Shown here one piece after another: positions 5,181 to 58,614 of a stretch of DNA of 64,000 nt. Origin of the DNA: Cyanidioschyzon merolae. Lineage: Eukaryota. The DNA lies in the NCBI GenBank assembly GCA_000091205.1, contig AP006489.2; one strand, 5' to 3'. The stretch's first letter is position 1. Each line of letters begins with the position of its first letter. Position numbers and translations under genes: made by a program. Below the pieces are notes generated by a model, which saw only the letters and a list, made by a program, of their open reading frames with translations, did no database searches and was not told where the DNA came from.

Positions 5181-5636
5181 GAGGCACGGAGCTTCAACGA
5201 AAGAAACTGCTCAATAACGGAAACGTACGATGATTGCACCACGGGTGACGAGATGAGCGTTGCCGCGAACACTCATTGGAGGAAAAAACGCTAGTCGATG
5301 CGCCAGCGACAGCGATCGGGAAGATACTGGACATTTAAGGACATTATGTACTGGGGCTGCTGCTGCGCGATCTGCTGCGCAATGAACGGCGAGGTTGGAC
5401 CACGTAATGCGCAGCTGCGGCAACAGCCGAGGTACCGCGACGGTGATGGGGACGATACTGGACATTTTAGATCATCACGAACAGGGGCTTTTGCTTTGCG
5501 ATCTGGTGCGGTACACGACTCGACGCGACACGAACCTGGTTCACAACCTACGCAGTCGCTGCCGCTAATCGAAGCGACGTGAGTGCAACATGTCGTACCA
5601 GAACTTCCACGAACCTTAGTAGACACCGGTGTATCC

Positions 5637-14895: not shown

Positions 14896-15131
14896 GCTCC
14901 GTCGGGGTAGGCTCCACTCGTCGCACGACCAGCGACCCCTGGTGTGTGGAGCTGTTCCGTTGGACAAAAGCCCTGAGCGGAAAAAGAGGCAAGCGAGCAC
15001 AAGGCCTGGCAAAACTTCTTCGAACCTTGAGGTTGTACGCAGATATCAGATTAAAAAGGAGCAGTGAACTGCTCGCATTCGTTCTGCCCGTCAATATTTC
15101 AGCGAATTGTTCAAAAGCATAGCCTCGAAAC

Positions 15132-16317
15132 TCCCAATCCATCCATAAGCGCTTATGGATGCATACGTCGTTCGAGGACCCCTGGTCTTTTTTTCGGAGT
15201 GGTTCGCTCACCGCTTTGCTGCCGGCACTCGTTTCGATACAGGAATCGAGGTGGTTCACGACAACCTCGAATACATATTCGTGAATTGGCCTGTATCCTC
15301 ATCCAATGCGAACGTGCAAGCCGCTGCTCTTCTGCATTCCGGAGGTATCGCATGCCGGAATCACGCATTTTCATGCCCGGAATCTTTCTGTATCGAGGCA
15401 GCGAATAAGTGCAGAAAATTCCCACCTTTACATGGGCACGAAAAGCATTTCGTCTTCGCCTGCTAGCGAATTCTGCACTGGTTCATGGCGAGTCATCACT
15501 GAATGTGTCACGTCCAACAATCCGCTGCGTTCGAATGGCCAATGGCCCTCTCGTTGTGGTGAACGACGCACTGGCATTCGACAGCATCTTGATACGTCTC
15601 ACAGGATGTGCTCGCGGGGACTCGCGTCTTTTCCTTTTGCATTTCGAACGGTCTTCGACTTGGACGTTCTCTTCGCAGCAATCGCTTCTAGTGGAGCGTG
15701 CGTCATCGCGTCGCACGATACAAGCAATGGCCAGCTCGATAGATGTCGATCTGTTTTCTTTCCTGGATTTTCATCGCAGTATTTGTTCCATCACGAACAT
15801 TACCGAGTTCCACAAATACTTTATCGAATGGAACAGTGTGCACTTGCATTTGCAGCAGAGAGCGTACGTGCCGAGAGCATCATCTGCAAGTAGCCCGTGC
15901 GTATAGGGTACGGTATCGGGCACGCAAACCGAGACAGGTATAGACAATGCCCTTCTATACCCGTCAGTAACGTGTAACAATCGATGAAGCAAGCGCTCAC
16001 AATCGACAGCATGGCTCCCCGGAGTGGCAGCATGGTGTACGCGTGCGAACATTCGACCGCAGTCGGCTGGCACCGTCGCATACGGCAAACCTCTTTCGCA
16101 TACGCAGCAGATGAGCATACCAAGCGAAAAGTAGACCGCAACGCCGACCTACGCATCCAGTGCGTCCCCCGAAGCCGGAAGCAGCCAAATACTGACTCTA
16201 ATGTTGCCGGCAACATCCTTCACCAGCTGACAAAGAAGCCGGAAGGACCAGAGCGTCCAGCGTACTACACTCCAGAGGTAAAAGAGATGACTCTGAACCA
16301 GTCACAGAAAAAAAGCC
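15132..16317 (+). repeat. Direct repeat copy 1 (about 1186 bp), left flank of the nitrate-assimilation cluster.
   Basis: Near-identical to 27673-28857. The same ORFs appear in both copies (15064..15408 equals 27653..27949; 15306..15893 versus 27847..28434 differ at 3 of 195 aa). Boundaries were mapped by eye to tcccaatccatccataagcgc... through ...cacagaaaaaagcc. A 20-bp perfect palindrome ATCCATAAGCGCTTATGGAT sits at the 5' edge. Confidence 0.9.
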
Positions 16318-17584: not shown

Positions 17585-19291
17585 CTACGGCTTCTGAGCT
17601 GGATGCACGTCCGAAACGTGTTCCGCCTCAGGGCGTGTGCCACGATCAAGAGCACTTGTCGTTTCCACCGGTTCAATCGAGTCGCGCATGACGCTCTGCA
17701 GTGCGCCAGTATTCATGGGTTCGCCTATCGCTACGATCGGCGACATAGCCTTGTCGTCTGGCGGCTGCTCCGAGACACCAAGATCGTCCTTTTGGAGACT
17801 CAAGCGATTCAGCGCACGCAATTCTGCATCAGATATTCCAATGGTCGTCACTTTCACGGGGAGTGGCCAAAGCAACAGAAACGACAAGACTGAGATACCC
17901 AGCACGACAAAGGAGATTAGGCGAACCGCATCCGGATCGCTCATGTGGCTAAACACAAGACTGAGGGTGACGCCGCCAGTATTCCCGCCCGCACCAACGA
18001 TACCACCCACGGACCCGGTCGCGATCGGATCCACGAAGGGGACGATCGCGAAAACTGCGCCGCATGACGCCTGCGTGAAAAGGGAAAAAAGAATCAAAGT
18101 GGGTATTGCTGCACCGATGGTCGTCATCCGGGAGAAAACCAAGCAGAATACACCCTCGAGAACCAGGTTCGCGAACAACCAGAGCACACGTCCGCGCATG
18201 CTGTAGCGACGCGCAATCAGATCCGAGCCAATACCGCCAACAGCCCGCGCAAACAGGTTCATTAGTCCAAAGAGACCTGCCGCAACACCGGCTATCGATT
18301 GATCAAGGTTGAAGACTTTGTTGAAGTAAGTAGCCAGCACGTTATCCATGGTCAGCTCAACACCGAAAGAAGACGCATACAGGCAGAACAGCACATACGT
18401 TCGCGGATTTCTTGCTGCTCGCGCAAAAGCCTCGAGTGCTGAAATCGGGCGCAAGTTCCCGATTCGATAGAGATTCTTGTAGTCACCGTCTGGGCAGTCG
18501 TCGGAGAAGAAGAACAAGACCACGGCCCAGATCAGGGCCATGGTACCAGGGATCACCATCACGACTCGCCAGGCTTTTTCCTCGTCCAAACCGAAGACCT
18601 TCATCAAGTTATAGAACTGCGGCATAAGCGCATTGGTGGCGCCACCGCCCGCATTGCCCCATCCCGCTGCAACCGCATTCGCTGTTCCAATGATATTCCT
18701 CGAGAACATCAGCGCACACCAGTACTCAGTTACAACGAAGGTTGCACCAAGACCGCCGATGAAAAAACGTGCTGTGGCGAATGATGCAAAATTATACACC
18801 GTTCCGAACAGATACACCGGGATTGAGAACACCGCCAGCAGGAGCGCCTGAACACGTCGTGGCCCGAAGCGGTCCACCAGGGCACCAGTCACCATGCGCA
18901 TGAACACTGTACCTGAAAGCGCAATCGCATTCGAGTGCGCTTTGTTCGCTTTGGTCAAGTCCAATGCTTTGTCCGAGGAAATACTCGGTAAAAGCGCTGG
19001 TACCGCAAACCAACCGAAAAACGCGATGAAAAAGGATGACCATGCAAAGAAAAAGGCCCGCATATGCGGACGGTCGAAGCGCCACGGCTCCAGGCGCCTT
19101 GCCCGGTGTAGGGCATCGACTGGCAAACGGTACGAATACAGCGGAGCCGCCACCGACTCCACTTCAAGGTCTTTCCATTCTTTACTGTTCGGACGCGAAG
19201 GCCCCAGAGATGAGTCGAGGGTGTCGTCTCGGAGGAGGATCTCTTTCTCGTCCAACGCTGTAGGGACAGGTTGGCCAGCTCCCTCCGCCAT
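17585..19291 (-). CDS. NRT2: High-affinity nitrate/nitrite transporter, NNP family (NRT2), an MFS transporter.
   Basis: The NNP nitrate signature AAGWGNAGGG is present in GGATFVVTEYWCALMFSRNIIGTANAVAAGWGNAGGGATNALMPQ. About 12 hydrophobic segments with Gly-rich MFS motifs are visible, and the gene is adjacent and divergent to nitrate reductase. Confidence 0.88.
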   Translation of the reverse strand: MAEGAGQPVPTALDEKEILLRDDTLDSSLGPSRPNSKEWKDLEVESVAAPLYSYRLPVDALHRARRLEPWRFDRPHMRAFFFAWSSFFIAFFGWFAVPALLPSISSDKALDLTKANKAHSNAIALSGTVFMRMVTGALVDRFGPRRVQALLLAVFSIPVYLFGTVYNFASFATARFFIGGLGATFVVTEYWCALMFSRNIIGTANAVAAGWGNAGGGATNALMPQFYNLMKVFGLDEEKAWRVVMVIPGTMALIWAVVLFFFSDDCPDGDYKNLYRIGNLRPISALEAFARAARNPRTYVLFCLYASSFGVELTMDNVLATYFNKVFNLDQSIAGVAAGLFGLMNLFARAVGGIGSDLIARRYSMRGRVLWLFANLVLEGVFCLVFSRMTTIGAAIPTLILFSLFTQASCGAVFAIVPFVDPIATGSVGGIVGAGGNTGGVTLSLVFSHMSDPDAVRLISFVVLGISVLSFLLLWPLPVKVTTIGISDAELRALNRLSLQKDDLGVSEQPPDDKAMSPIVAIGEPMNTGALQSVMRDSIEPVETTSALDRGTRPEAEHVSDVHPAQKP

Positions 19292-20163: not shown

Positions 20164-23109
20164 TTGTATGCTCGCTCGTGTCGACTCTTCAGTCAGTACC
20201 CCAATTGTGGATACCTTGCAAGGTCTCGGGACTGTCTATTCACGTACCACACGATGCACACTGTACCGGAGGGCTGCAGCTCCCCGCGTGCCGATGAGCA
20301 GACTAAGCTGATGCGCCAACAACCGCATGAGAACGGCACCAAACCGGCGATATTGTCGGAAGCGAGCGCGCTGCTCGCTGCAATGAGGCACTGGGAGGAG
20401 CAGCTCGCGCAGCGCCAGCTCCCCATCGACAAGCGAGATCAAAACACACCCGACGACTGGGTGCCTCGTCATCAGGCGATGGTGCGTCTCACGGGGAGGC
20501 ACCCGTTCAATGCCGAGCCGCCACTATGTTTGCTAGATCAGGATCTCACGAGCCAGGAACTTCACTATGTACGGAACCATGGAGCAGTCCCGCATCTGAC
20601 CCTGGGCACGCACCGCATTCATATCAGTGGCCTGGTAGAACGTCCGGGCGCGTTTTCTGTAGAGGAACTGCTCGCGCTGGGGGAGCTCGTCACGATCCCT
20701 GTGACCCTCGTGTGCGCTGGCAACCGGCGCAAGGAACTCAATCAAATACGCCAAAGCATTGGTTTCCACTGGGGTGCAGGCGGCGCCTCCACGTCCTTCT
20801 GGACAGGGGTACGTTTGGCGGACGTCCTCCGTCACTGCCAAGTCTGTGAATCTCCGAAAGCCCGTTATGTATGCTTCACTGGTGCTGATGAGCCAGCGAA
20901 AGGTCCGTACGGTACTAGTATACCGCTCGCGATGGCGCTGGATCCGCACGCTGACGTACTCCTAGCGGTTGCTCAGAATGGAGCGCCTCTACATCCGGAC
21001 CATGGGTATCCTGTTCGACTTTTGGTGCCAGGATGGATTGGCGGGCGCATGGTCAAGTGGCTGTCCCATGTTGAGGTTTCAGACCGCGAATCGCAGAACC
21101 ATTACCATTTTTTTGATAATCGCATCATGCCCCCACACGTGGATAAGGAGCGCGCCGACTCGGAGAAATGGTGGTATCGCCCCGAGTACCTTTTCAACGA
21201 GCTGAATATCAACTCGGCGGTAGTGCGCCCGCTGCACGATGAATTGCTTCCGCTGCACCATGCGAGCGAGCAGCATTCCTATCGTATCGAAGGCTACGCC
21301 TACAGCGGCGGTGGCAGACCCGTCACGCGTGTGGAGATCACTTTCGATGACGGTCAGCTTTGGAATCTGTGCGAGCTGCGGCATCCTTTTGAGCCGAACG
21401 CAGCCGGACGGCAATGGGCCTGGAGTCGCTTCAGCTTCAATGCATCACTCGTGCATTTGCTGTGTTGCACCGAGTTTGCAGTCAGGGCCTGGGATAGCAG
21501 CAACAATACACAGCCGCATCGCTGGACCTGGAACGTCATGGGTATGGGCAATAATGCGTGGTACCGCGTGCGCGTCTCACCGGTACCCGATCCCGGCACC
21601 GGACGTATTTCGCTGCGTTTCGAGCATCCTACAGTGCCGGGGCCGACGGCTGGCGGCTGGATGGGTTCCAGTACTGTCCCAGGAGCGTCGCACTCGGGGC
21701 AGCAACCAGCTGTGCCTGCACCAGCAACAGAACATGCACTGCGAGACGCCCCGGAGGCGAAGCGCGACATCGCCCAAATGGCTGAGCGGGTGCAGATGCC
21801 ACCTGTGCCGAACGCAGTTGGCAGCACGGTGCATGGCTCCAATGTGTACCAACAAATGATGCGCAAAAAGACCGCGGAAAAGCTCCAGCAGGCGCAACAA
21901 CGCCTCTATACAAGCGCCCAAGTTGAGCGGCACCAGAGTGAGACCGATCTTTGGATCGTAGTGCGCGGTCGTGTCTACGACGTGACGCGCTATCTGAACG
22001 AGCACCCCGGTGGCAAGGCGGCGATCATGATGAATGCCGGACAGGATTGTACCGAAGACTTTGAGGCCATTCACTCCGAGAAAGCCTGGAAGTTGCTGGA
22101 TGACTTTTACATCGGAGAATTGGCTCCTGCTGGGTCATCCGCAGATGCGTCGCTCTCGTCGTCGCCTCATCTGGCGTATACGGACTCGTCGACGGATCTG
22201 CTGCGGGAGCAGTTCTCCAGAGACGCAGTCATTCACGCCGATGCCGCTGACGGCGCCTGTACCGAGAGTATCGATGGATGCCGCCCGGCATTAGACCCAA
22301 AGAAATGGAAGGACTTTGTGCTCGCCAGCAAGTCGTATATCACGAAGAACACGGTGCGACTGCGCTTTGCTCTACCTGATGTCAACCAAGTGCTGGGTCT
22401 GCCTACAGGGAATCATTTGCTCATTCGGGCGCGAATTGAGAACAAGAATGTCGCACGGGCGTACACACCGACGAGTCTCGGCCACGAAGCCGGCTTCTTC
22501 GAGCTTGTGATCAAAGTGTACCGCGCGGGCGCGCATCCTTCATACCCGTCTGGCGGGAAAATGTCGCAGTATCTGGAACTGCTTCGTATTGGAGACACGG
22601 TGCAGGTCAAGGGCCCACTTGGGCACTTTAGCTACGTCGGACTTGGCGCGTACATGTTACATGGACGAGCTGGAAGGGCGCGGCGGTTCGCTTTTCTTTG
22701 TGCAGGCAGTGGCATCACGCCAGCGTTCCAGGTGATGAAAGCAATCCAGGTTGAGCTTCAAGAGCATGCGAAACAGTCATCTACACCGTTTCTGGATGCT
22801 ATATACCTGGTCTACGCGAATCGAAACGAGGACGAGATTCTGCTCTTCCAGGAACTCGAAGCATGGCGCCAGTGCGATGCGCGCTTTCAGTTCTGCTACG
22901 TACTGAGTCAACCGTCGGAAGCCATTTCCAAAACGTTTCCGGAGGCTGTCGTTGGCCACGTGAATCAGGAGCTGCTGGCAGCCCGTCTACCGGGGCCACG
23001 TAGTGATCTTATTATCGGCATTTGTGGTCCAGCGGGATTTCAGGATGATGCGTGCATTCCGGCACTGAAAGCTCTGGGATATACTTCGGAACAGTTTTTT
23101 ACGTTCTAA
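20164..23109 (+). CDS. Assimilatory nitrate reductase [NAD(P)H] with Moco, dimerisation, cytochrome b5 and FAD/NAD domains. The true start may instead be the in-frame ATG at about 20251 (MHTVPEG...).
   Basis: The Moco Cys motif VTLVCAGNRRKELNQIRQSIGFHWGAGGASTSFWTGVRL is present. The b5 haem domain reads YLNEHPGGKAAIMMNAGQDCTEDFEAIHSEKAWKLL. The FAD motif RAYTPTS and the NAD motif CAGSGITP are present, and the canonical domain order is preserved in 981 aa. Confidence 0.95.
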   Translation: MYARSCRLFSQYPNCGYLARSRDCLFTYHTMHTVPEGCSSPRADEQTKLMRQQPHENGTKPAILSEASALLAAMRHWEEQLAQRQLPIDKRDQNTPDDWVPRHQAMVRLTGRHPFNAEPPLCLLDQDLTSQELHYVRNHGAVPHLTLGTHRIHISGLVERPGAFSVEELLALGELVTIPVTLVCAGNRRKELNQIRQSIGFHWGAGGASTSFWTGVRLADVLRHCQVCESPKARYVCFTGADEPAKGPYGTSIPLAMALDPHADVLLAVAQNGAPLHPDHGYPVRLLVPGWIGGRMVKWLSHVEVSDRESQNHYHFFDNRIMPPHVDKERADSEKWWYRPEYLFNELNINSAVVRPLHDELLPLHHASEQHSYRIEGYAYSGGGRPVTRVEITFDDGQLWNLCELRHPFEPNAAGRQWAWSRFSFNASLVHLLCCTEFAVRAWDSSNNTQPHRWTWNVMGMGNNAWYRVRVSPVPDPGTGRISLRFEHPTVPGPTAGGWMGSSTVPGASHSGQQPAVPAPATEHALRDAPEAKRDIAQMAERVQMPPVPNAVGSTVHGSNVYQQMMRKKTAEKLQQAQQRLYTSAQVERHQSETDLWIVVRGRVYDVTRYLNEHPGGKAAIMMNAGQDCTEDFEAIHSEKAWKLLDDFYIGELAPAGSSADASLSSSPHLAYTDSSTDLLREQFSRDAVIHADAADGACTESIDGCRPALDPKKWKDFVLASKSYITKNTVRLRFALPDVNQVLGLPTGNHLLIRARIENKNVARAYTPTSLGHEAGFFELVIKVYRAGAHPSYPSGGKMSQYLELLRIGDTVQVKGPLGHFSYVGLGAYMLHGRAGRARRFAFLCAGSGITPAFQVMKAIQVELQEHAKQSSTPFLDAIYLVYANRNEDEILLFQELEAWRQCDARFQFCYVLSQPSEAISKTFPEAVVGHVNQELLAARLPGPRSDLIIGICGPAGFQDDACIPALKALGYTSEQFFTF

Positions 23110-24342: not shown

Positions 24343-26403
24343 CTACGATACGGGCGCTGCCGGCACCCCATCCCAATAACGTTGCGCATACGCCTCGAGT
24401 TGCGCCTTCCCAACTCGATCGCAAAAGTCTCCAAAGGACTCGTCCGGCTCGCGTGCGCTTTTCCAGAATACAAACACCGGCTCCAGGACGCGCTCCACCT
24501 GATCGTCCGTCACCCGATCGATATACGGCCACGCGAGGCGCGTCTGCATCGGGCTCCCGCCCAGCCACACCTGATACGTACAATTCGGACCTGATCCGAC
24601 GAATCCCAACTCGGCCATGTACGGACGCGTGCACCCGTTCGGGCATCCAGTCATGCGCATCACGAACGATGCGTGCGGCGAGATGCCGACTTTGGACAGC
24701 AGCTCGCGCACGCGCTGCACGTAGCGCGGCATGACACGCTCCGCCTCCGTGATCGCCGGCGGACACAGCGGCAACGCTGGACACGCCATCGCGTCACGCA
24801 TCAGCGGATCCAGTGCGGATGCTGCCGTCTCGACGCCGAACGACGCCAGCAGCGTCTCGACGTCAGGGCGCGCTGTCGCTGGCACCTGCGTGATGAGAAG
24901 GTTCTGCTGCGGCGTACATACCAGGGGAAAGTTGAAGCGATCCGTTAGGGCACGGAGTGCTTTCTTCAGCTCGTCTTTGATCCGCCCGTTCTGTACGTAG
25001 AGGCCGAAAAACCAGCGTCCGTCTCCTTGCTCGCGCCAACCCAGATAATCCTGGAAAGTCCACGGCGGCATGGAGCGTATCGACTCTAGCGCACTGCCAC
25101 CACCCACCATATACGACTTGACGAGTTCGCGGAATCGATCGATGCCCAGCCGATGCACCAGGTACTTCATCCGGGCGTTCGTGCGAACTGCACGATTGCC
25201 GTGGTCCCGCTGGGCAGCCAAGATCGCTTTGAGTGTGTCGTACAGCGCCGCTGCCGGTACGTACCCCAGCGGATCGGCAGCACGCGCGAAGGTCTCCTCT
25301 TTGTTATGAGTGCGACCCATGCCGCCGCCGACGAGAATATTGGCACCTTCCAGTTGACCCTGCGCATCACAAAAAACGACGATTCCAATGTCGTGTGTGT
25401 AGATGTCGATAGAATTATCCCCGGGAACAGTGACACCAACTTTGAACTTGCGCGGAAGGTACAGCTTTCCGTAAAGCGGCTCGACGGAATCCTGCAGAAC
25501 CTGACCACGCCCGTTATCCTCCGTCATGAGTCGTCGAACTTCGTCCATGTCCAGCTCCTTCTTCCAGTACTCGATGCTGGCGGCAAGCTCCCCATCGAGC
25601 CACAGATCCGCAAACGCGTGCGACTGAATCGCGAACAGCTCTGCCACCATTCTGGCAACGTGTCGTGCCTGCGCATACGCGGCATCGACGAAGGGCGCCG
25701 GCGGCGCGATGACGTTGCGCGAGCAGTCGCCGCTCGCACCATACAGCCCGCCGCCCGCTCGCACGATGCTCTGGACGACGGTTTTCAGATTGGATTTATG
25801 GATGCCGTGGATTTGGAACGAAGAGCGCGTCGTGAGCCGCAGCGTCTTGTTCCCATAGGTTTCACTGATGTCGTCGAGTGTCGTATACAGCGAAGGCGGA
25901 CACTCGCCGGCGGGCATTTTCAGACGGAGCATGAACTGGTATTTCTTGAGCTCCCCGCGAACACGTTGATCTCGGTTATCTTGGAGATATCCGCCATGGA
26001 ACTTGATAAGTCCGATGCAGTCATCGGAGATGAAGATCTGGTCGTTGCCCAGTTCTTCCATTAATGGGTGACGAAGATAGTCCGAGTTCAGTTTCGGCAA
26101 CTCGTATGGATTTAGCTTGAGCTGGTCGAGTGTCCCGTCACGGATTGCTTCCTCGATATGCTTCCGCGTTGTGATCGGCACGACCGTATGCTTCTTCCGA
26201 GACTGTTCAGATGAGAGGTTTGCTATGATGTTCCGCCGGGCGGTTCGGCACTGCCGTTGGCGTCGTAGTCGGTCTCGCAACAGTACCTCGGTCAACGGAT
26301 AAACGCCCGGTGCTGCGGAACCGGTGGGTGCCAAACCTCTGCGAGCGCCGACTAGAGGTTTTGCGTACGTGACGAACATCATCAGAGTATACCGCACGCG
26401 CAA
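24343..26403 (-). CDS. Siroheme/[4Fe-4S] sulfite/nitrite reductase hemoprotein, ferredoxin type and CysI/SiR-like. By position it is the presumptive nitrite reductase of the cluster.
   Basis: [77 protein letters not shown] closely matches the siroheme-cluster region of E. coli CysI (CPLAMAEAERFLP...[33 protein letters not shown]) and plant SiR (PLCPLAITEAERGIP...[24 protein letters not shown]). There is no FAD/NAD(P)H domain in the 686 aa. The N-terminus is Arg-rich and presequence-like. Confidence 0.8.
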   Translation of the reverse strand: [686 protein letters not shown]

Positions 26404-27229
26404 CTATGTTGAAGGCGCTGCTCTGGCACGAGCTCGAATGGCCAGCAGAGCTTAAACGAAGTAAGGCAAAAGCCATCCTGAATTCATGCGTTCCTATCGA
26501 TCCCACGGGTGCGTGTTATCCAACGGATCACGGATCCGTTGAGCATCGCAGACCTGTCCAGTTAAGTCTATAGTTGGCTCGTTTTGAATCTCTTCGCAAA
26601 GGCGCGCAGCGTGCCCCACGCGCACACGTGCCGAAGATTCGTGCGATGCCGATCCGGCCTCATAGCGGACACGTGTCGCAAGGAAATGCCGTGCACGCAG
26701 CGTCCTTCCCATGGCCGTTATGTACAGTATGATTCATGTTAATTGTTTTAAGTGGACAAGTCTTGACACATGCCAGTGTTCTCCAACCGTGCGCTTCCTA
26801 TCAGCGCGCGGTGAAGCATCGCTCGATTCACCTACTTCCAAGTTCCATAACCCTTACCTCTTCTTGGATATACTAGCCGCTTCATACGTTCTATCGTTCG
26901 CCGCGTGCCTGCCCTGCTGCATCTGGAATAGCGATTATAGTGCCGGTGCGGTCGTAGCACGGTTACGGAACGGCGTTGCAGTTCCACAGAGGGCGTCGGC
27001 GCGAGAGTATACATGAATATCCACACACAGACGCCTCTCAGCTATTCTTGACCGGCCGACTTCTATCGGTTTCAGTTTCTGCTAGAACACTTCCAGCTTG
27101 AGAGGCTGCACCACAAAACTCGATCGCGACAGCTCCTCGGATGTCGTCTTCAACACTGCATATCGTCGGATATTGATAGCGGCGTCAAAGTCTCGGTTCA
27201 CGAATTCCGTCTGTTCATTGGCTCAGGTG

Positions 27230-27600
27230 GGACTCAACAAAGCAAGGATTCCTAGAACTCGCGCCTTCTGTGCAAGCAAGGCCTCGTCATCGCACCGTCG
27301 GGAAGCACCTGTTGACGCCAATCTCCCCTCTTGTTCTTCGTATTCTTTTTCACTTGCTCTTCTTCGCTCGATGGTATGCGAGAGGAGGATTGTTTTCGTT
27401 TTTCCTTTCGCGGCAGCCGGCGACAGCGGGCCCCCAGGATCCCTGCCGTCCACGCCCGTTCCTTTCCCTTGAATTTTATTTCTCCAAATGAAAGCACTTT
27501 GAGCACATCTGCTGTACGCTGCGAGAAAGTACTTGATGACATGCACCCGGGTCTGAAACACATTTGAGTTGAACGACGGTAAGATTCATATGCAACGCTA
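27230..27600 (-). mobile_element. Diverged fragment homologous to the 5' end and N-terminal K/R-rich region of the Fanzor-like element at 57.24-57.65 kb.
   Basis: DNA similarity of about 75% by eye between ...cccctcttgttcttcgtattctttttcacttgctcttcttcgctcgatggtatgcgagaggaggattgttttcgtttttcctttcgcggcagccggcgacagcgggcccccaggatcc... (27320-27450) and 57360-57470. The peptide similarity DPGGPLSPAAAKGKTKT versus DPGGPGSPAAREKKQKT holds in the same frame and orientation. It ends about 70 bp before direct repeat copy 2. Confidence 0.55.
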
Positions 27601-27672
27601 AATTTTTTGCACCGATCCCGCCTCAAGCTATTTCTTCCGAACGTTTCCTACGATGCACAGTATAATTATTAT

Positions 27673-28857
27673 TCCCAATCCATCCATAAGCGCTTACGGA
27701 TGCATACGTCGTTCGAGGACCCCTGGTCTTTTTTTCGGAGTGGTTCGCTCACCGCTTTGCTGCCGGCACTCGTTTCGATACAGGAATCGAGGTGGTTCAC
27801 GACAACCTCGAATACATATTCGTGAATTGGCCTGTATCCTCATCCAATGCGAACGTGCAAGCCGCTGCTCTTCTGCATTCCGGAGGTATCGCATGCCGGA
27901 ATCACGCATTTTCATGCCCGGAATCTTTCTGTATCGAGGCAGCGAATAAGTGCAGAAAATTCCCACCTTTACATGGGCACGAAAAGCATTTCGTCTTCGC
28001 CTGCTAGCGAATTCTGCACTGGTTCATGGCGAGTCATCACTGAATGTGTCACGTCCAACAATCCGCTGCGTTCGAATGGCCAATGGCCCTCTCGTTGTGG
28101 TGAACGACGCACTGGCATTCGCCAGCATCTTGATACGTCTCACAGGATGTGCTCGCGGGGACTCGCGACTTTTCCTTTTGCATTTCGAACGGTCTTGGAC
28201 TTGGACGTTCTCTTCGCAGCAATCGCTTCTAGTGGAGTGTGCGTCATCGCGTCGCACGATACAAGCAATGGCCAGCTCGATAGATGTCGATCTGTTTTCT
28301 TTCCTGGATTTTCATCGCAGTATTTGTTCCATCACGAACATTACCGAGTTCCACAAATACTTTATCGAATGGAACAGTGTGCACTTGCATTTGCAGCAGA
28401 GAGCGTACGTGCCGAGAGCATCATCTGCAAGTAGCCCGTGCGTATAGGGTACGGTATCGGGCACGCAAACCGAGACAGGTATAGACAATGCCCTTCTATA
28501 CCCGTCAGTAACGTGTAACAATCGATGAAGCAAGCGCTCACACTCGACAGCATGGCTCCCCGGAGTGGCAGCATGGTGTACGCGTGCGAACATTCGACCG
28601 CAGTCGGCTGGCACCGCCGCATACGGCAAACCTCTTTCGCATACGCAGCAGATGAGCATACCAAGCGAAAAGTAGACCGCAACGCCGACCTACGCATCCA
28701 GTGCGTCCCCCGAAGCCGGAAGCAGCCAAATACTGACTCTAATGTTGCCGGCAACATCCTTCACCAGCTGACAAAGAAGCCGGAAGGACCAGAGCGTCCA
28801 GCGTACTACACTCCAGAGGTAAAAGAGATGACTCTGAACCAGTCACAGAAAAAAGCC
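27673..28857 (+). repeat. Direct repeat copy 2 (about 1185 bp), right flank of the nitrate-assimilation cluster.
   Basis: About 99% identical to 15132-16317 (offset 12541 bp). The palindrome at its 5' edge carries one mismatch (ATCCATAAGCGCTTACGGAT). Confidence 0.9.
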
Positions 28858-38692: not shown

Positions 38693-40300
38693 CGATGACT
38701 TTTGAAGTACATGGAACGTATAGCCATGTTTGATTTTGTTTGTTTTTCTGGCAGGTATGCAACGAAAGGAATGCGTTTCGCAGACTGGGGAAAGGTCGGC
38801 AAGAGGCTCGATGGCGCCACTACTGGCTAGCGAAGAGAGGCCTTCGCATCAGAAGCAGCACAGAGTGCCTCCCTGGGGTCCGAGTGCACGAGCCACCTTT
38901 TGCGTCCGTTCGATATAGACCGCAAATATCAGACCAAGGCTCATGATCGCATCGTAGACTCTTCTGCATGGAGCTTTACGACCACCACCGTAGTGAGCAG
39001 CGGCAGATATCTGCGACCAATACGAAGCATTCGAGCAACACCGCAAAGCGCACTGGCGAGATACCTTGCTGTTAACCGAGAGGAAACGGGAAGACGTGTT
39101 TGCGAGGACGTCAAAGACCGGACGGAATATCAATCTGTATGCACATTGCGCAGCATCTGGACCAGCGTCTACCAAAGAGACTCATTCGCACCCGTTCAGC
39201 CCAGATGAAGACAACGTCTTCGCGATGGTGGTGTTCGTGCATCCCGAATCCAGGTGCATCGAAGCACTCGCCGTACCTGTAGATCAAGAGCACGGAGCCA
39301 GCGACCCAGGAAGAAACCAGATGAAGCTGCTCGATCTCCGGGGATTCTCTCTGGTAGGCAGCTGGGAATGATCGGCACCAGAGGGTATACCAGAAAATGG
39401 AATGCTGTTATCAGCACCAATCGCGACGCTCCGAGCTCTGCATCCAGCAGCGGGCGATGCTTGCGTCCGTTTCATTCAGAGCGTGCCAAAAACGTCCAAA
39501 CAGTTGATGCACGCGATACTCAGCGGGAATTCGGGACACCGCACCGGAGTCGCCGACAGTTTCGGCCGTATGGAGGCAACAAGCGCGCAAGTGTCGGGTT
39601 CTTCACTGATTTCGAACAGAAAATGACGAGAGGTTTGCGTCGTTTCGCGATAGCCTTCGGCGCTGGGCTTGAAGTTGCGCACACGCCCTGAACTCCTGCG
39701 CTCCGTCGACGAAAGCCGGCAGTGCGCACGGGAATCTGCGCTATACGATTCCCATCGGTGACTGAATCCCGGGCGACATCGATGCATCACGAGCGTGGGT
39801 GCTTGCTGCGACACGAATAGAAACAATCGTATGAAACAGCGTCGGATGCACGCCATGGTGTCCAGAAGGCTGAGCGGACGTCAGTTGGCGAGGCAATCGA
39901 AAAGCATTGCCCAGCTCGTGTGTGATGCCACCGGCTATCATGCACGCGAGCTCTCTCTCTCTCTGTGACGACTCGAACGCCTCCATTATTCACTGGGTAT
40001 GACCAGTGCTTCGAGAGCGTCCAGCGGCCTTGTGTCGAGCGAACGTTCCCGAAAATCGTTTCGTAATCAGCCTGGGCATCTTGCTGAAAAGCTGCAGCCT
40101 TGCGTCCAGAAACACAATGCATCAGTGACCAGGAGAACGCGCACTGGATGCTCACCCCGCAGGAACACACCGCTGTGCTTCGGGTGAGCAATCCATCAAG
40201 GCTGCAGCGACGTGCACCCATCCACCGGTAACGGTATTCCTCAACAGTATTTGAGCGATCATGGGGTTCCACGAATCAACTGTAGAGCGTATATCGCACA
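38693..40300 (+). repeat. Inverted-repeat arm A (about 1.6 kb).
   Basis: It is the reverse complement of 44945-46558 at about 99% identity. Mirrored ORF pairs are 39066..39371(+) with 45879..46184(-), 39476..39856(-) with 45394..45774(+), and 38900..39208(+) with 46042..46350(-). Boundaries were mapped by eye at cgatgacttttgaagtacatgg and tgcgatatacgc. A (CT)n/(GA)n indel near 39950/45290 shifts the frame between the two copies. Confidence 0.88.
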
Positions 40301-41161
40301 GCGGTTGCCGTATCTGCCTAGGTGCTCGAAGATACTTGCCCGCAGAAACGCTGCTTGGTTTCGCGACACCTGAATTCGACTGGTAGGCAGGGGCCTGCAA
40401 TGCGCCGCCATCGGGGATGGAGAAACAGTTGCTTCGGAAGCCGCTTTCTAACAGGCCGTTACAATCAGACAGCACCGGTTTGGGAACTCGCGTCGACGTC
40501 GGCAAGTCTGTACTGCCTCAATGCAGCGGCCTCGATAAAGCCGGCACTCAGTAAAATGCCGGTTCTACTGAGTTTCGATTTTATCGGCGAACCCTGTTCT
40601 GGGCATGGCTGTTGTAAAGGCATCTGCAGAAGCGGGAGTGCATACGTCCACAGCGGCTTCCGTTTTGCACATTGGGCCGTGTCTGATTGAATGCATCGAT
40701 CACCTCCCGTGAAAATTCCTTTGAGAAAAGACTACAACGGAGGCGCTTCCATCCATGCCGCCCTCTGGCGGCAACAGATCCGCCTAATCCCCATCGCAGG
40801 GTACCAGGTGCAGTACTGCGGACAAGTGATATCCGCGGAAGCGACACTCCAGCCGACATCAGCCGCCTGCATTGATCGAAGTGACCGCCGCTTCTCACTC
40901 GACCATGCACTGTGTGAGCATTCGAGAGCAGCACGCAATTCATCACATACTATGTTCGACAAAGCCTGCGGTGTGCATTTCGCCAGAGATGCCAAAGACA
41001 AAACCGTTGTCGATGGCGGCTGGCCGAACCAGTTCAAAAAAGCGTCTCCAGGCATCTCTGAAGTTGTACGTTATGGAGCTTCGGGCCGAGAATCCGCATG
41101 CACTGCTCAGCGGCACGCCGCAGAATGTCCCGACGAGAACGTGCCTACACCACACCAGCCT

Positions 41162-42046: not shown

Positions 42047-43980
42047 GAGCTGGCCCAGAAGGACCCCTACGCTCGGAGTGAATCAAGCAAATACCTCCAC
42101 AAGCACGAACGCTCCTGCGAGTACCACCACGCTGAACACCAGTCGAGCAGGAGCGAGTGGGCGCGCGGCGTCCGCTGGCGACGTGTCCGTTTTCCGGTAA
42201 CGCCACCGCTGCAGCGCGCCGGTCAGAGGCGTCACGCTCCTGTGACGCCTTAGGGGCATGCAAACGGCCCTGACAGCGATAGGATCGGTACCCGCGAACT
42301 GGATGAGGCGATTCCTCCCATGATTTGTTTGCTGAAGGTAGCGCTTGCTTGCTCGTGCTCGATGGCATGCTACAGGGTGCATGCCAGATGGCGAATGATG
42401 TTCGGTTCATTGGTCGATGTGGATCGTCATGGACGAGATGAGACTAGGGAAGAGGAGGCGGCAGGATATCTGGCGATCCGCGGCGTCGCTTGTCCATCGA
42501 CGCGTAAGGCTCGTGTGCGGCGGCCGTTCGCTCTCGAAAATGGGCCATATGCTCCATCGGATATCCAGGTGCACGAAGGCTAGCGTATGCTATCTCTGCG
42601 GAAGCGCGTCCGAACATGAAGATCAATCATAATCCATCGCTGGTTGATACTTTGAGCGCTGCATACGCATCGGGACGCGCTGGAATTCGGGTACAGATGA
42701 CCACGCACGCGTCCGCTGTGCTGCTCGGTGAGCGGGCGGTTGCGTTCACCAAAGTGCAGCCACGAGATGAAACGAGGTCGACGAGACTGCTTGGAAGCTC
42801 TCAGGGTGTTGCGACAGGTCGCTTTGTGGGCTACTGCTACCCACTGGATGCGGCGGAGACTCAAACGCACTCGCATGATTGCTATGAGCATCGCAGGGAT
42901 GCCAGCGGGAATCACGAGGCATCTGTCGCTCAGAGAGCCCTCGATCACGAACAGGAATGGAGTGTTTCGAGTGCTGTACAGCGCAAGAGCGGACGCCAAG
43001 AATCAGAACCCTGGAGATGCATTCAGAAACGCGTGCCGGCTGGTGCCTATCCTTGGGAGGAAGATCCGGCGAATTGTGCATGTCCATACTGGGGCGTGCT
43101 GCGCCAAGTCCCGTATCGCGTACCGACAGGGTCACCTTCACTCGATCGCAAATTGGAGACTCGACCCCAGGATTCATCCTCACAACCGAGTTTCTCGAAT
43201 GCATCGCGCCGCGAAAGCAGGTCTGTGTCCGCTGACTGCTCGAGCACAACCTGACAGTAAAAAAACCGGCCTCGCGCCCGATAGACCACACCCCGAGCTG
43301 ACACCCACTCTAGCATTGCAAAGTTGCCCTGTGTACGTGCAGCACCAGCTCTAGAGGCGCTATTGTGAACGCGAATGGCAGACACGGCGCACGATGCCGT
43401 GTGCGCAATGACCACCAGCACCACCACCATCGACCAGCAGGATGGTAAATGGAACTCGCTCATCGTGCATGGATCAATGGACGTTTCCCGAAACGCCAAT
43501 CTCAACGACTACGTCGGGAATTCCCTGGTCCGCATAAACCTGCTATCAGTCAAAGCGAATGCTGCGGGGTACCAGCATCATCGCCACAGGCACCATTCCA
43601 GGTAGCGAGCACGCGATCGCGGCAGCATCGAGCGCCACGCGACGTGGCGGGAAATGCGACACGCAGCCCAGATGTGCGATGCGTGATTGGCGCGTTTGCG
43701 GCAGTGCTCACGCAGGCTATCACTAATAGCGTTTCCAGGCGCTCTTTTCGATTTGTGCCACTCACTGGTGCTGTTCGTTGTGACGCTGAGTTCACGCAAC
43801 ATCAGCTCAGCTCGCTTACTCGAGACTCGAATCTGGTTACTGACTGCTGCCCGATCGTTGAGGTGTTCGAGTCTCGGAGCTATTGGAACGAGAACATTCG
43901 GGTGCTGACCCACAGGGTCCCGTTCGAGCACTGCGCGCTGTGAACGGCGTTATAGAAACGCACGAGGCAAAGTGCTGCAT

Positions 43981-44604: not shown

Positions 44605-44944
44605 ACACGCATGCACAGGGTGCGGTATACCGTGCCTGCGGCCAGCGCTCTACCTCTATGTGTGCGCTGAGCGTTGGGCGGTGCTGCGTTCGCAGGTCGT
44701 CGTTTTCGTGATATCCTAAGGCTTGCGATGCCTGTAGCGTTAATCGTGCGAAAGCGGATTCGTCACGGGAACTTGACCGAAAGTCGCCTGGTGCGTGCAC
44801 CGCAACAGCACTCGATCCCGATGCGAAAGATCCTATGCGGTCTGATTCCTTTGTTCGTGGTAAAGGGAAAGCACCGTCAGAGGCTTGGGCCGCTCACGCG
44901 CTGCTCCGAGGCAGCCTGCTGCCGTCGTGGTATCGACGGCAGGC

Positions 44945-55119: not shown

Positions 55120-55869
55120 TGACACAGCCAACAACAAACGCCTTTGAAAAGAAAAACGCTGCCGCCAGTGGTGCACAGTAGTGGCGGCGAACGCGCCCCG
55201 GACAAGCAGTCTCCAGCTGACGGGCAGACGCATCCCAGCCTTGCTGGGCAGGCCACCCACCACTGGTTTCAACTTTTTCTCATATAGTTGGACTTTGAGA
55301 GGTTGTCCAACAAAGTTCTCTCTTGTCTGCTGTGGAGGTCTTTTCTCAATCGCCGCGCATCTCCTTATATTGACGGCGGCGTTAAAGTCTCGGTTCACAA
55401 ACCGCATACGTTTCTTGCCGTCGTTGGTTGTACTTACGAATGCGAGTAGCCCTCGCACTTTTGTTCTCCTCTCCATTTGCACCTCCGGCAGCGGTCCGTA
55501 CTTTGCTATGTCTTCAGGACTCCCCTGGCGCTTTTCCATCTCGACCCTTTGAAGTGTACACTCCAGCTCATGGTGTGTATCGGACGTTCGGAACTCATCT
55601 ATCCGTATCGTAACAAAACGCCGTGCATTCTCCTTGTACGTTCTTGTCGTTGGAGCTGGCGGAGTCCCTTTGTGGGTCTTCCAGCGCCCCACTCCGTATG
55701 CTACTACGAGCCTCTGACTTTCAAGCTCTCTCAAGGCACTCAACTCATTGAAAAATTCGCGAACGCCCGCTGCTGACCACAATACGGATTCATACGCAAA
55801 CGAGCCCACCGGGGCTTTGTATACTCTTCCCACAGCGCCTCCCAAGGAGCAACATGAACATCCATGCAT
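55120..55869 (-). pseudogene. Fanzor/TnpB-like nuclease, C-terminal segment (RuvC-II Glu, a degenerate zinc-finger region, RuvC-III). It reads through in-frame into TIM10.
   Basis: RFVTIRIDEFRTSDTHHELECTLQRV has the E(x)TS motif of RuvC-II. The expected CxxC...CxxC zinc finger is missing. FVNRDFNAAVNIRRCAA is RuvC-III. No stop codon occurs before the TIM10 ATG. Confidence 0.55.
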
Positions 55870-57068
55870 TTCAGAAAAGCTTCAAAGTCCGCTGCGCGGC
55901 TCGTCACCTTGCTCATAGCTTCCAGGTGCTTCTTCAATCCAGCATTCTCTATCTCGATTTTCTTCCTTGCATTCATTATACCGGATTCTCGGTAGTATCT
56001 CGCTCTCGAGAACCTCAAACGACGCATGTCGTTCTGACGTAATTTACTGTGCGTACCGTATTCCGCACGCTGGGGTACTGCGATGGTTATGATATTTGTG
56101 TTTCCGGGGTCCGCGCCAACGACAAAGTCGTTATTCTCTACCTCTTGCGTCGCAGGATCCTCCTCTTTGTTTTCCTCATGCTTCGCCGCGCCAACGACAA
56201 GGTCGTTATCCTCTACCTCCTGCGTCGCAGGACCCGCCTTCTCCTTGTCTTCATCCTTCGTGACGGGCGCAGCCGAGGGAGGGACTGGCCGGGCTCTCTT
56301 CAACCGCCGATAGTGTATACACAAGGCTACTCCATCGGTTTCAATCATCAAAGTGAACAATTTTTGCTTGCTCACTCTCAAACGTTTAAAATTGAAGATA
56401 TTCTTCCAGTACGTCTCCCGGTTCTCGCCGGCGAAGTCCTCCCTGCTAACGTTGAACTCCGAACAGATCTCCTTCATGATGCCATGAAGGATTCCGGAGT
56501 CGATAGTCCCAAAATGTGACTTGATATTGGACAATGGGACCACGTTGAAGCGCTTCCCCATTAGGAAATCCTTCCGTCTCTCCCACTCTTCATTTGTCTC
56601 TTCACGCAGCATCACCGCTGCCTTGGCTTCGAGCTCTCGGTCCAGAAACACGAAATAGCACAGAATGAGGCGATCGTATCTTTCCTGATCTTTGCTCAAC
56701 TCTGATACCTTGTCTGTTGGATTCGGTAGCCCCAGTACCGCACGATGCTCTTGTATAACCGTACGGATCGCAGAAGCTTCATTCGTGCTCACTTTTGACG
56801 CCTTCTTGTCGACAAATTCGACCTCATCTTCACGCTTGCGATCTTTCATGATGCCATTGATAATCGTCCATTTTCCATTGCGAGAGATGCGCGGGTAGAG
56901 TGCAACCACGGCGCGTATCATGAAACGTTCGAGGTCCATTGTCAAATGGTTCTTCAGGTCCGTGAGGTACTTCTTCGCCCCGTAGGTGTACATATCCCGG
57001 TCACCCTTGTAGCGAGTACCCTCGAAGCTGTAAAAGGGGTGTTTTTCGTGGAGGGTATGCACTAGCAC
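55740..57068 (-). pseudogene. Fanzor/TnpB-like nuclease, N-terminal segment (WED/REC-like region plus RuvC-I), containing an internal 75-bp tandem duplication.
   Basis: ...[54 protein letters not shown] shows a 25-aa tandem repeat (DNA 56116-56190 and 56191-56265). The second copy carries the RuvC-I aspartate motif. The ORF terminates at 55740 out of frame with the downstream RuvC-II/III segment. Confidence 0.55.
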
Positions 57069-58614
57069 ATTTTCCCTCCGCGTGTTCCCTGCGCCAACCC
57101 TCAGGTGACGAATAAAGGTTGCCGAAAACTCCCTCTGGAATCTCGACTGTTTCCATGTGCGTCACATCGCGATACATCTCCCTCGCCAAATGCATCAGTC
57201 CTGACGACGCCCTGGCAATACGCTTGGAGTACGACTAGGCACGTTTTTTGATGGCGCCTCGCAACTTTTCCCTGTACGAATCCTTGATATGTCCAAGAAG
57301 ACCGGCTTTCACTACCATTTCGTCGTACAGGTGTCTTTCTTGCCGCCTTCGACGTAGGGCCTCCCCTCTTCGGTCCTTCTTATCTTCCTTTTTTTCCGGA
57401 CTCGGCACTGTTTTTTGTTTTTTTTCTCTGGCAGCCGGCGACCCTGGGCCTCCAGGATCGTCGACTTGCTTTTTCATAACTTTCCTTTTTTAGATTTTTT
57501 TGAAAAAGAACGTTCTTTGAACGCTTCTGTTATATACTGCGAAAAAACGCTTGAATACACTTGTTTGAGGTTTGAAACACAATTGAAATCAAAACTATAC
57601 TTGGATATGAAGCTCACGAAAATCTGACTTTTACAGCTGAACGACACGCAACTGATCAAGATCGCGTTTCCCTTCAACGGCGGCGGCATGCGCGTCGTGC
57701 CAGTTGACTACTGCCAGCTCTGCCAGATGCACTCACTGACCGCGATGCGTGCACCGCGCGAGACGCTACACGGATCGATGAAGGACACGTGTCCGACGTC
57801 GCATTAGCACATGCGTGTTCTCACCGACGCACTGCAGCGGAAATCAGGTGTCCTAGATCGGAAACTCACGTAGAGTGATCCCCTGCGCTAGGCTCTGTCG
57901 CTGGTGCCGAAACTACTGCCCATCGCCGTACTACCCTAGCATACAAGGGGATGCTGGGGCCTGGCACAAAACTCAGCGATGACTCCAGCACACGCGTAGC
58001 CATCGTAGCATCTTGCGCTTTTGTGGGTAAGGCATGCATCAACCTAGTCATTAGGAGTTTCGATAGTTGTATTTATCGTACACAAACTAGGTGTAGTCGT
58101 GTACCCGAGTACGAATAATATACGTTTATTCCCGATTCTTGTTATGCATGCCGCACGGACGCTGGAATGAGGAACAGATTTGAATTCTGCTTTTATCCGG
58201 CGTCATCGGCGGGCACTGATGACAGTTCAGTATATTGCCATGCTGCCGTCGTTGTCTAACTTATGGTGTCTGCTTCGTTCGAAGGATCCGGTGATCTTGG
58301 TAGAGGCATCGCACACATGTAGCGTGCATATGTAGCACCGCGTTCGACCGACGCATTTCGCCCGGAACGATCGAGGCACCAGCAGCACAAGGCGCTGCAC
58401 CGACCTGAAGGACGGGCGGAGAGGCCCGGCAAGAGTAAATATTGTATAAAGTAGCATATTTAGGAATCTATATGATCCATTTTGCATACGCTGCACGAAA
58501 CGCTTGTCGCACTTGCGAACGCTTTGCAAGCGCTATCCGACAGCGCGTTTCAAGGGCGAACGCGTGCGTCTCGACGTAAAACCCACTGTGTGGAGGCGCT
58601 AGGAGCGCTCTAGA

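What the first reader, a model, noticed from the sequence alone, without database searches (positions are those of the whole stretch)
27230..27672. A second, diverged copy of the Fanzor-element 5' region lies about 70 bp inside the right direct repeat of the nitrate island
About 350 bp at 27230-27600 are homologous (about 75% by eye) to 57240-57650. The homology covers the K/R-rich N-terminal peptide (DPGGPLSPAAAKGKTKT versus DPGGPGSPAAREKKQKT) and the AT-rich terminus. The fragment is truncated and sits between the reductase gene and direct repeat copy 2. This links a mobile-element family to the boundary of the repeat-bracketed nitrate cluster. It suggests transposon activity, or transposon-mediated rearrangement, helped shape the island.
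Basis: seen in the sequence. Interest (0 to 1): 0.6.

Follow-up and report, generated by a model that had tools for sequence, protein, structure and literature searches.

The report
Decayed mini Fanzor transposon near nitrite reductase

Summary
The similarity is real, but smaller and different from what was described. Window 27393-27567 matches 57412-57586 at 67% identity (local score 49; shuffles 13.6±1.6).

So 27007-27573 on the minus strand is not a truncated 5' fragment. It is a 567-bp copy keeping both a 5' part and a 3' part, with about 1.77 kb deleted between them (Fanzor codons ~45-634).

The window is C. merolae 10D: its nitrite reductase is 100% identical to XP_005535840.1. The element belongs to the published Fanzor1 family CMe-1A (Bao & Jurka 2013). 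Against that consensus, the copy matches positions 794-1038 and 2809-3083.

Six other unique copies at different loci share the same deletion junction, so this is a propagated non-autonomous subfamily. All are decayed.

The copy lies between a TE-N2_CMe-like fragment (26809-27005) and a 1.27-kb dispersed repeat (27579-28857). That repeat contains "direct repeat 2".

Cyanidiococcus has the same gene order without any of these repeats. The transposons arrived in the spacers; nothing here shows they built the cluster. Interest is low.

The parts
27305..27573 (-). 5' part of the short element ('A'). It matches CMe-1A consensus ~794-1038: about 110 bp upstream of the Fanzor start codon, with the TATA-like motif mutated, plus the first ~44 codons. 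These codons include the K/R-rich DPGGPLSPAAAKGKTKT stretch. There is no ATG.
   Evidence: 75% identity to the consensus over 794-968; continuation to ~27305 scores 18 versus 9.4±1.5, with 0 of 500 shuffles reaching it. Translation.
27028..27298 (-). 3' part of the short element. It matches CMe-1A consensus 2809-3083: Fanzor codons ~635-700, including the RuvC-III remnant FVNRDFDAAINIRR and one in-frame stop, plus about 85 nt of the conserved region downstream of the ORF.
   Evidence: versus 55225-55459, score 55 versus 12.5±1.1; 69% over 271 positions; tblastn to residues 640-728, 51% identity, E=8e-18.
27007..27027 (-). Short tail specific to the short subfamily. It does not match the last 86 bp of the CMe-1A consensus (3084-3169).
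   Evidence: Alignments. The boundary is good to about ±10 bp.
26809..27005 (+). TE-N2_CMe-like fragment matching CMe-1A consensus 60-255 at 74% identity. It is inverted relative to A and abuts A's 3' end. Family alignments suggest it may extend to about 26740.
27579..28857 (+). Copy of a dispersed ~1.27-kb non-coding repeat family ('R1'). Its part 27673-28857 is 'direct repeat copy 2'. Its left end lies 6 bp from A's 5' end.
15046..16317 (+). The other R1 copy. 15132-16317 is 'direct repeat copy 1', 99.3% identical to copy 2. Its first ~86 bp are only ~53% identical to the matching stretch of the other copy.
55139..57744 (-). The longer reference copy ('B'). It matches CMe-1A consensus 648-3169 at 85% identity and lacks the TE-N2_CMe part (1-647). 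The Fanzor gene is a pseudogene: a TAG at codon 80, a 2-bp deletion near 57119, a 1-bp deletion near 55755, and an extra in-frame 75-bp repeat unit near 56262.

Best explanation
Window 27007-27573 (minus strand) is a decayed copy of a non-autonomous, internally deleted derivative of the C. merolae Fanzor1 transposon family CMe-1A.

Shown:
- It consists of two pieces of the parent element joined at about 27298/27305. One piece is the region upstream of the Fanzor start plus about 44 N-terminal codons. The other is the last ~100 codons plus about 85 nt of the conserved stretch downstream of the ORF.
- About 1.77 kb encoding almost the whole nuclease is missing.
- The same junction occurs in six other unique copies at unrelated loci.
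- The copy has no start codon and carries an in-frame stop. It is about 25-33% diverged from the family consensus. None of the short copies keeps an ORF.
- It lies in a spacer that in Cyanidiococcus is 720 bp and repeat-free, but here is 2.87 kb. That spacer holds three repeat pieces: the TE-N2-like fragment, A, and R1.

Inferred:
- The deletion happened once, and the short form was then copied to new sites. This is the usual way short derivatives of DNA transposons arise, using in trans whatever machinery moves the full-length elements. That transposase is unknown for this family.
- The copy is now inert.
- Its position next to 'direct repeat 2' reflects accumulation of mobile DNA in a tolerant intergenic spacer. 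It does not indicate a role in assembling the nitrate cluster.
For: - Two collinear blocks are significantly similar to the longer copy in the window and to the published CMe-1A consensus.
- tblastn of the CMe-1 protein hits 27285-27022 at E=8e-18.
- BLASTN of A alone aligns without a break across the junction (480-570 bp, 67-68% identity) with L080, L043, L060, L054, L023/L022 and L019. A multiple alignment shows no large gap at the junction.
- A profile of the short family maps to full-length elements as two blocks: profile 3-289 to the 5' region and 303-554 to the 3' region.
- The short copies have no conserved ORF.
- Organism: the NiR ORF is 100% identical to C. merolae 10D XP_005535840.1.
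- Family: Bao & Jurka 2013 (PMC3627910) describe CMe-1A as ~150 copies, a 3169-bp consensus, no TIRs and undetermined TSDs.
- Lineage-specific insertion: the Cyanidiococcus locus L084 is collinear but lacks A, R1 and the TE-N2 fragment.
Against: - A, and the short subfamily as seen in the alignments, lack both ends of the published consensus (1-793 and 3084-3169). The sequences needed in cis for mobility are therefore unknown, and the short copies may derive from a different, unsampled Fanzor subfamily.
- No TIRs or TSDs could be defined, and no empty site was found, so transposition of the short form is inferred from dispersed copies only.
- The six other copies come from hot-spring metagenome contigs, not from the 10D genome itself. 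The same samples do hold contigs 99.5% identical to the window.
- Boundaries are good to about ±10 bp.
Confidence: 0.85

Rival explanations
1. One reading: a truncated 5' fragment of the Fanzor element, whose presence at the repeat boundary reflects transposon-mediated rearrangement that helped build the repeat-bracketed nitrate 'island'.
For: The copy is adjacent to direct repeat 2. The spacer is full of mobile-element fragments.
Against: - The 3' block is present, so this is not a 5' truncation.
- The gene order of the cluster and its flanks is the same in Cyanidiococcus without any of the repeats.
- The direct repeats are copies of a dispersed non-coding family.
- Each repeat copy has a ~90-bp R1-family extension that is only ~53% identical between the two copies. 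This fits gene conversion between two old insertions better than a duplication that created the island.
Confidence: 0.05
2. A one-off local event: a full-length CMe-1A copy inserted here and later lost its middle by deletion in place, so it is not a member of a propagated short family.
For: Internal deletions of resident transposons are common. A is very diverged.
Against: Six other unique copies at different loci share the junction and the subfamily-specific 3' tail. A is closer in architecture to them than to any full-length copy.
Confidence: 0.05
3. A retained functional element. Either it is a guide-RNA-only Fanzor derivative, with the region upstream of the start codon (TATA-like motif) driving the 3' non-coding RNA for use by Fanzor protein supplied in trans. 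Or it is co-opted regulatory DNA about 0.6-1.2 kb upstream of the nitrite reductase start.
For: - The short family keeps exactly the upstream region and the start of the conserved 3' non-coding stretch.
- In full-length relatives this stretch stays conserved although stop-codon positions differ.
- Fanzor guide RNAs are known to extend downstream of the ORF into the right end (PMC10530073).
- The element is retained in strains 99.5% identical to the window.
Against: - The TATA-like motif is mutated in A (alignment).
- A lacks the last 86 nt of the consensus, where a guide would be expected to adjoin.
- There is no covariation support for a conserved RNA fold: RNAalifold energy is -0.28 kcal/mol, and paired cells are 74.2% versus 74.0% in shuffles.
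- There are no Rfam matches.
- All short copies are about 30% diverged from each other.
- The only strains available for comparison are too close to show constraint.
Confidence: 0.05
4. Chance or low-complexity similarity with no homology.
For: The region has T-rich and K/R-coding low-complexity stretches.
Against: Scores lie 20 or more standard deviations above shuffles for both blocks. There are independent matches to the published consensus and protein.
Confidence: 0.01

Closest known systems
CMe-1A, the Fanzor1-carrying transposable element family of Cyanidioschyzon merolae (Bao & Jurka 2013, Mobile DNA 4:12; consensus in their Additional file 2)
   Same: Same organism. The longer copy B is 85% identical to consensus 648-3169. 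A matches consensus 794-1038 and 2809-3083 at 69-75%. The N-terminal DPGGP...K/R-rich peptide and the C-terminal NRDFNAAINIRR motif are the same.
   Different: A lacks consensus 1-793, 1039-2808 and 3084-3169. It has a ~20-bp tail of its own, shared with other short copies. It encodes nothing. It is more diverged (~70%) than the ~80% typical of the family.
TE-N2_CMe (635-bp non-autonomous element equal to the 5' 635 bp of CMe-1A; ~70 copies; Bao & Jurka 2013)
   Same: It is another short relative of the same composite consensus. A fragment of it (consensus 60-255) lies directly next to A at 26809-27005.
   Different: TE-N2_CMe corresponds only to consensus 1-635 and contains no Fanzor-gene sequence. 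A contains only sequence from the Fanzor unit (from position 794 onward). The two are different short elements, and here they lie in opposite orientation.
Internal-deletion derivatives of DNA transposons (for example Ds from Ac, mPing from Ping, and MITE-like families)
   Same: A single internal deletion removes the coding region. The short form occurs as multiple dispersed copies and has no coding capacity.
   Different: No terminal inverted repeats or target-site duplications could be found. The short copies do not carry the termini of the published full-length consensus. The mobilising enzyme is unknown.
Bacterial non-autonomous IS200/IS605 derivatives that keep the element ends and the TnpB guide RNA region (PATE-like elements)
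   Same: Loss of the nuclease gene with retention of part of the 3' region, where TnpB and Fanzor guide RNAs are encoded.
   Different: There is no evidence here of a transcribed or structured RNA. The 3' terminal part next to the would-be guide is missing. The organism is a eukaryote.

Membership tests
CMe-1A transposable element family (C. merolae) | Nucleotide similarity to the published 3169-bp consensus | tested here: met
   A: consensus 794-968 (75%), ~975-1038, and 2809-3083 (69%). B: consensus 648-3169 (85%).
CMe-1A transposable element family (C. merolae) | Carries the consensus termini (start of the TE-N2_CMe part; last ~86 bp ending ...TTTTGAAAGGCG) | tested here: not met
   A lacks consensus 1-793 and 3084-3169. 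B has the 3' end (55139 = consensus 3169) but lacks 1-647.
CMe-1A transposable element family (C. merolae) | Host genome is C. merolae | tested here: met
   The NiR ORF is 100% identical (679/679) to XP_005535840.1 of strain 10D.
Fanzor1 / TnpB-like RNA-guided nuclease gene | Intact ORF with the RuvC D-E-D motifs (GxDPG, DEF/YRTS, NRDxNAAxNI) | tested here: not met
   A keeps only FVNRDFDAAINIRR and has a stop. B has all three motifs ([30 protein letters not shown]), but its ORF has one stop and two frameshifts. Intact relatives exist elsewhere (P0001, 752 aa).
Fanzor1 / TnpB-like RNA-guided nuclease gene | Recognisable as TnpB/Cas12f-like by profile or by structure | tested here: inconclusive
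   - Pfam gives only a sub-threshold Cas12f1-like_TNB match (E~0.1-0.2).
- The precomputed annotation is PF26935 DUF8286.
- There are no PDB sequence matches.
- The AlphaFold model has pLDDT 39, too poor for a fold search.
- The Fanzor1 assignment therefore rests on Bao & Jurka 2013.
Fanzor1 / TnpB-like RNA-guided nuclease gene | Conserved, structured guide RNA region at and beyond the 3' end of the ORF | tested here: inconclusive
   - Sequence conservation continues about 170 nt past the variable stop codons.
- RNAalifold finds almost nothing.
- One sequence folds at z=-1.86.
- Covariation does not exceed shuffles.
Fanzor1 / TnpB-like RNA-guided nuclease gene | RNA-guided DNA cleavage | not testable with these tools
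   This needs biochemistry.
Non-autonomous internal-deletion (MITE-like) derivative | Several dispersed copies share one deletion junction | tested here: met
   Six unique non-window copies align without a break across the junction. The profile maps to full-length elements as two blocks.
Non-autonomous internal-deletion (MITE-like) derivative | No coding capacity | tested here: met
   No shared ORF among the eight short copies.
Non-autonomous internal-deletion (MITE-like) derivative | Defined termini (TIRs) and target-site duplications | tested here: inconclusive
   None are visible in the alignments of the ends. The family is published as lacking TIRs, with TSDs undetermined.

The most novel reading that the evidence does not exclude
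The short subfamily could be a 'nuclease-less' Fanzor derivative that still matters. It keeps the region upstream of the Fanzor start codon fused to the start of the conserved 3' non-coding region. Such elements might once have expressed a guide-like RNA that used Fanzor protein supplied in trans. Alternatively, this copy may now contribute regulatory sequence 0.6-1.2 kb upstream of the nitrogen-regulated nitrite reductase gene.
Probability: 0.07. Interest if true: 0.5.

Novelty: new member of a known kind. Interest (0 to 1): 0.2.

Why it matters
It matters little on its own.

It corrects the picture of this locus in three ways:
- The nitrate assimilation cluster of C. merolae is an old, syntenic gene cluster whose spacers later collected mobile DNA. 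It is not an island assembled or bracketed by transposition.
- The 'Fanzor element' used as the reference copy is itself a pseudogene.
- The CMe-1A family has a previously undescribed (as far as the 2013 description goes) internally deleted short subfamily. Its existence says which parts of the element survive without the nuclease gene.

This could help anyone trying to define the still unknown ends, mobility mechanism and guide RNA of this red-algal Fanzor family. It may also matter to anyone engineering the NiR promoter region in this model alga.

Tried and rejected
- RNA structure of the 3' region. RNAalifold on 33 unique full-length copies gave essentially no consensus structure. A structure taken from one intact copy showed no covariation above shuffles. 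I therefore make no guide-RNA claim.
- Rfam scan of the whole window: no match.
- Bacterial-type promoter and terminator scan of 26400-27900: at chance level, and not relevant to a eukaryote.
- Sequence search of the intact relative and of the family profile against PDB: nothing. NCBIfam: nothing.
- AlphaFold2 on a 14-sequence alignment gave mean pLDDT 39, so I did not run a fold search.
- Is 27573-27672 the displaced other half of the TE-N2-like element, which would make A a clean insertion with definable ends? There was no similarity. That stretch belongs to the R1 repeat instead.
- Do the short copies keep a mini-ORF (N-terminus fused in frame to C-terminus)? A is in frame across the junction but has a stop and no ATG. 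The others are not conserved.
- Exact-sequence look-ups of the window's BioDA ORF and of the 10D NiR protein in the contig index found nothing. The organism was identified through the protein cluster instead.
- The ORFs inside the 1.19-kb direct repeat have no Pfam match and are broken in other family copies, so it is not a gene.

Full report
**Observation check**

I compared the two regions directly. BLASTN with short words finds a 50-nt core (27393-27441 versus 57412-57459, 82% identity, E=4e-6) plus collinear weaker pieces. A Smith-Waterman alignment gives 27393-27567 versus 57412-57586: 116 of 173 positions identical (67%), score 49. 300 dinucleotide-preserving shuffles scored 13.6±1.6, with a maximum of 20. 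The similarity is therefore real. It is shorter and weaker than the "350 bp at 75%" in the finding. Both quoted peptides are present on the minus strand.

A self-comparison of the window showed that 27170-27201 also matches 55367-55398. Extended, this becomes 27028-27259 versus 55225-55459: 66% identity, score 55, against 12.5±1.1 for shuffles. On the minus strand this block encodes ...KARVLGILALLSPT*ANEQTEFVNRDFDAAINIRR.... That is the C-terminal RuvC-III region of the Fanzor protein.

The locus therefore holds both a 5' and a 3' part of the element, with the middle missing. The stretch 27568-27700 has no similarity to the Fanzor element.

**Organism and family**

The nitrite/sulfite-reductase-like ORF (24343-26403, minus strand) is 100% identical (679/679) to XP_005535840.1 of Cyanidioschyzon merolae 10D. 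The window thus covers the known nitrate-assimilation cluster of this alga:
- a transporter at 17585-19291;
- nitrate reductase at 20164-23109;
- the nitrite reductase-like gene (Pfam assignments).

Bao & Jurka (2013, PMC3627910) described one Fanzor1 family in this genome, CMe-1A. It has about 150 copies roughly 80% identical to a 3169-bp consensus, no TIRs, and undetermined TSDs. They also described a 635-bp relative, TE-N2_CMe, equal to the first 635 bp of that consensus. Their supplementary file holds the consensus sequence, and I aligned it to the window.

**The longer copy (B)**

Window 57744-55139 matches consensus 648-3169 at 85% identity, ending exactly at the consensus 3' end. It lacks the TE-N2_CMe part.

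Its Fanzor gene is dead. It has a TAG at codon 80, a 2-bp deletion near 57119 and a 1-bp deletion near 55755. It also has an extra in-frame 75-bp repeat unit. This agrees with the three reading frames seen.

**The flagged copy (A)**

Against the consensus, A aligns as follows:
- 27573-27393 matches consensus 794-968 (75%).
- The match continues weakly to about 27305 (consensus ~975-1038; score 18 versus 9.4±1.5; 0 of 500 shuffles reached it).
- 27298-27028 matches consensus 2809-3083 (69%).
- tblastn of the CMe-1 protein hits 27285-27022 (residues 640-728, 51% identity, E=8e-18).

The junction is therefore at about 27305|27298. About 1.77 kb is missing (codons ~45-634 of 734). A also lacks consensus 1-793 and 3084-3169.

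The "AT-rich terminus" of the finding corresponds to consensus 794-905, the stretch just upstream of the start codon. In the consensus this stretch carries GGTTTATAGCAG; in A the motif is mutated. It is not a transposon end.

In A, the N-terminal and C-terminal pieces are in one reading frame. However, there is no ATG, and there is a stop.

**A is one copy of a short subfamily**

I searched for relatives of the reconstructed Fanzor protein. It has 37 relatives, nearly all from JGI hot-spring metagenomes, including an intact 752-aa protein. I fetched 80 loci around such genes, about 1 Mb in total.

BLASTN of A alone against these loci aligns without a break over 480-570 bp (67-68% identity), across the junction. 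The matching places are L080 7939-8477, L043 6232-6760, L060 19702-20237, L054 3118-3603, L023 8811-8344 (L022 is a duplicate of it) and L019 14488-14970. The multiple alignment has no large gap at the junction, and the flanks are unrelated.

A profile of these short copies maps onto full-length elements as two separate blocks. Profile positions 3-289 map to the 5' region, up to the codons for YDEMVV. Positions 303-554 map to the 3' region, starting at the codons for ERRAKV.

The most economical reading is one deletion followed by spread of the short form. No further junction-spanning copies turned up in the 1 Mb. None of the short copies keeps an ORF. After ...GGAGGCGTCTG, the short copies share a tail of their own in place of the last 86 bp of the full-length consensus.

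**Neighbours of A**

Directly 3' of A, window 26809-27005 (plus strand) matches consensus 60-255 at 74%. This is a TE-N2_CMe-like fragment in the opposite orientation to A.

Directly 5' of A, from 27579, begins a copy of a dispersed ~1.27-kb repeat family that I call R1:
- The 1186-bp "direct repeat" (15132-16317 and 27673-28857, 99.3% identical) has about 55 matches of ~1.13-1.19 kb at ~57-58% identity in the fetched loci.
- A third copy lies in the window at 1599-2846.
- Its ORFs are not conserved and have no Pfam match, so it is non-coding.

Both flanking copies extend about 90 bp further left (15046-15131 and 27579-27672). Each extension matches the same part of other family members. Yet the two extensions are only ~53% identical to each other. 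This pattern suggests two old R1 insertions whose main body was later homogenised by gene conversion. That is an inference.

**Did transposons shape the cluster?**

The orthologous locus of Cyanidiococcus yangmingshanensis (L084; NiR 84% identical) has the same order: SET/RRM gene, BioDA aminotransferase, NiR, NR, transporter, large neighbouring gene. Sensitive BLASTN finds only the genes there. It finds no R1, no A and no TE-N2 fragment.

The BioDA-NiR spacer is about 720 bp in Cyanidiococcus, against about 2.87 kb in the window. A metagenome contig 99.5% identical to the window carries A and the repeats.

The cluster and its flanks therefore predate the repeats, which are lineage-specific additions to the spacers. 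Nothing points to a role for the Fanzor element in building or moving the cluster.

**Function**

Fanzor guide RNAs are encoded at and beyond the 3' end of the ORF (PMC10530073). In full-length relatives, nucleotide conservation does continue about 170 nt past stop codons that sit at different positions.

I could not show a conserved RNA fold:
- RNAalifold gave -0.28 kcal/mol.
- One copy folds at z=-1.86.
- Pair covariation equals the shuffled controls.
- Rfam has nothing.

A keeps only the first ~85 nt of this region. I conclude that A is an inert fossil. A residual regulatory or RNA role is possible but unsupported.

**Is the protein a Fanzor?**

Independent checks here were weak:
- Pfam gives only a sub-threshold Cas12f1-like_TNB match.
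- There are no PDB or NCBIfam matches.
- The structure model is unusable, with pLDDT 39.

The three RuvC motifs are visible in the alignment. The Fanzor1 assignment comes from the 2013 paper.

**Verdict**

The finding is a real but mis-described observation of an ordinary object: a decayed, internally deleted member of a published transposon family in a well-studied genome. The only mildly new point is that this short form is a propagated subfamily distinct from TE-N2_CMe.

Noticed in passing
window 15046-16317, 27579-28857, 1599-2846: The 1.19-kb 'direct repeats' around the nitrate cluster belong to a dispersed ~1.27-kb non-coding repeat family, with about 55 matches in 1 Mb of related contigs and a third copy in the window. 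The two flanking copies are 99.3% identical over 1186 bp, but only ~53% identical in their first ~90 bp. This suggests gene conversion between two old insertions.
   Followed up: partly
window 55139-57744: The reference 'Fanzor element' is a pseudogene, with a TAG at codon 80 and two frameshifts. It lacks the TE-N2_CMe part of the published consensus, so the Fanzor unit (consensus 648-3169) can occur without it. It ends less than 100 bp upstream of a Tim10-family gene.
   Followed up: yes
window 56111-56260 and relatives P0001, P0007, P0008, P0018: Just before the RuvC-I GADPG motif, the Fanzor protein has a 25-residue acidic tandem repeat (…[23 protein letters not shown]…). Its copy number differs among family members, from 1 to about 5 units.
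   Followed up: no
window 39356-39811 (+), 45439-45894 (-), 63573-63986 (-): There are three more decayed pieces of a second, distant Fanzor-like family: 29-35% identity to CMe-1 residues ~470-700, with DNA relatives in the fetched loci. Two of them lie in the arms of a 1.62-kb, 99% inverted repeat (38693-40311 / 44936-46558) that brackets the SBDS and Mnd1 genes.
   Followed up: partly
window 26809-27005 and 43230-43564; loci L013, L025, L031, L076, L056, L016, L065 and others: TE-N2_CMe-like sequence recurs next to Fanzor units in several arrangements: directly upstream in the same orientation, about 0.7 kb upstream inverted, or, as here, abutting the 3' end inverted. Consensus position ~255 is a recurrent breakpoint. 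This may reflect an insertion preference or nested insertions.
   Followed up: partly
relatives aligned in A2/A3 (e.g. L003 12259 region, B 55300-55139): Stop codons of intact family members fall at different places (after ...NFIG, or 60 or more residues later). The underlying ~170 nt stay as conserved as the coding sequence. This is consistent with a non-protein function for the 3' tail, but no RNA covariation was detected.
   Followed up: yes
window 52248-52427 and 5306-5510: A 90-bp tandem duplication (84-90% identical) lies at 52248-52427. A 74-bp repeat spaced 131 bp apart lies at 5306-5510. Neither was examined.
   Followed up: no
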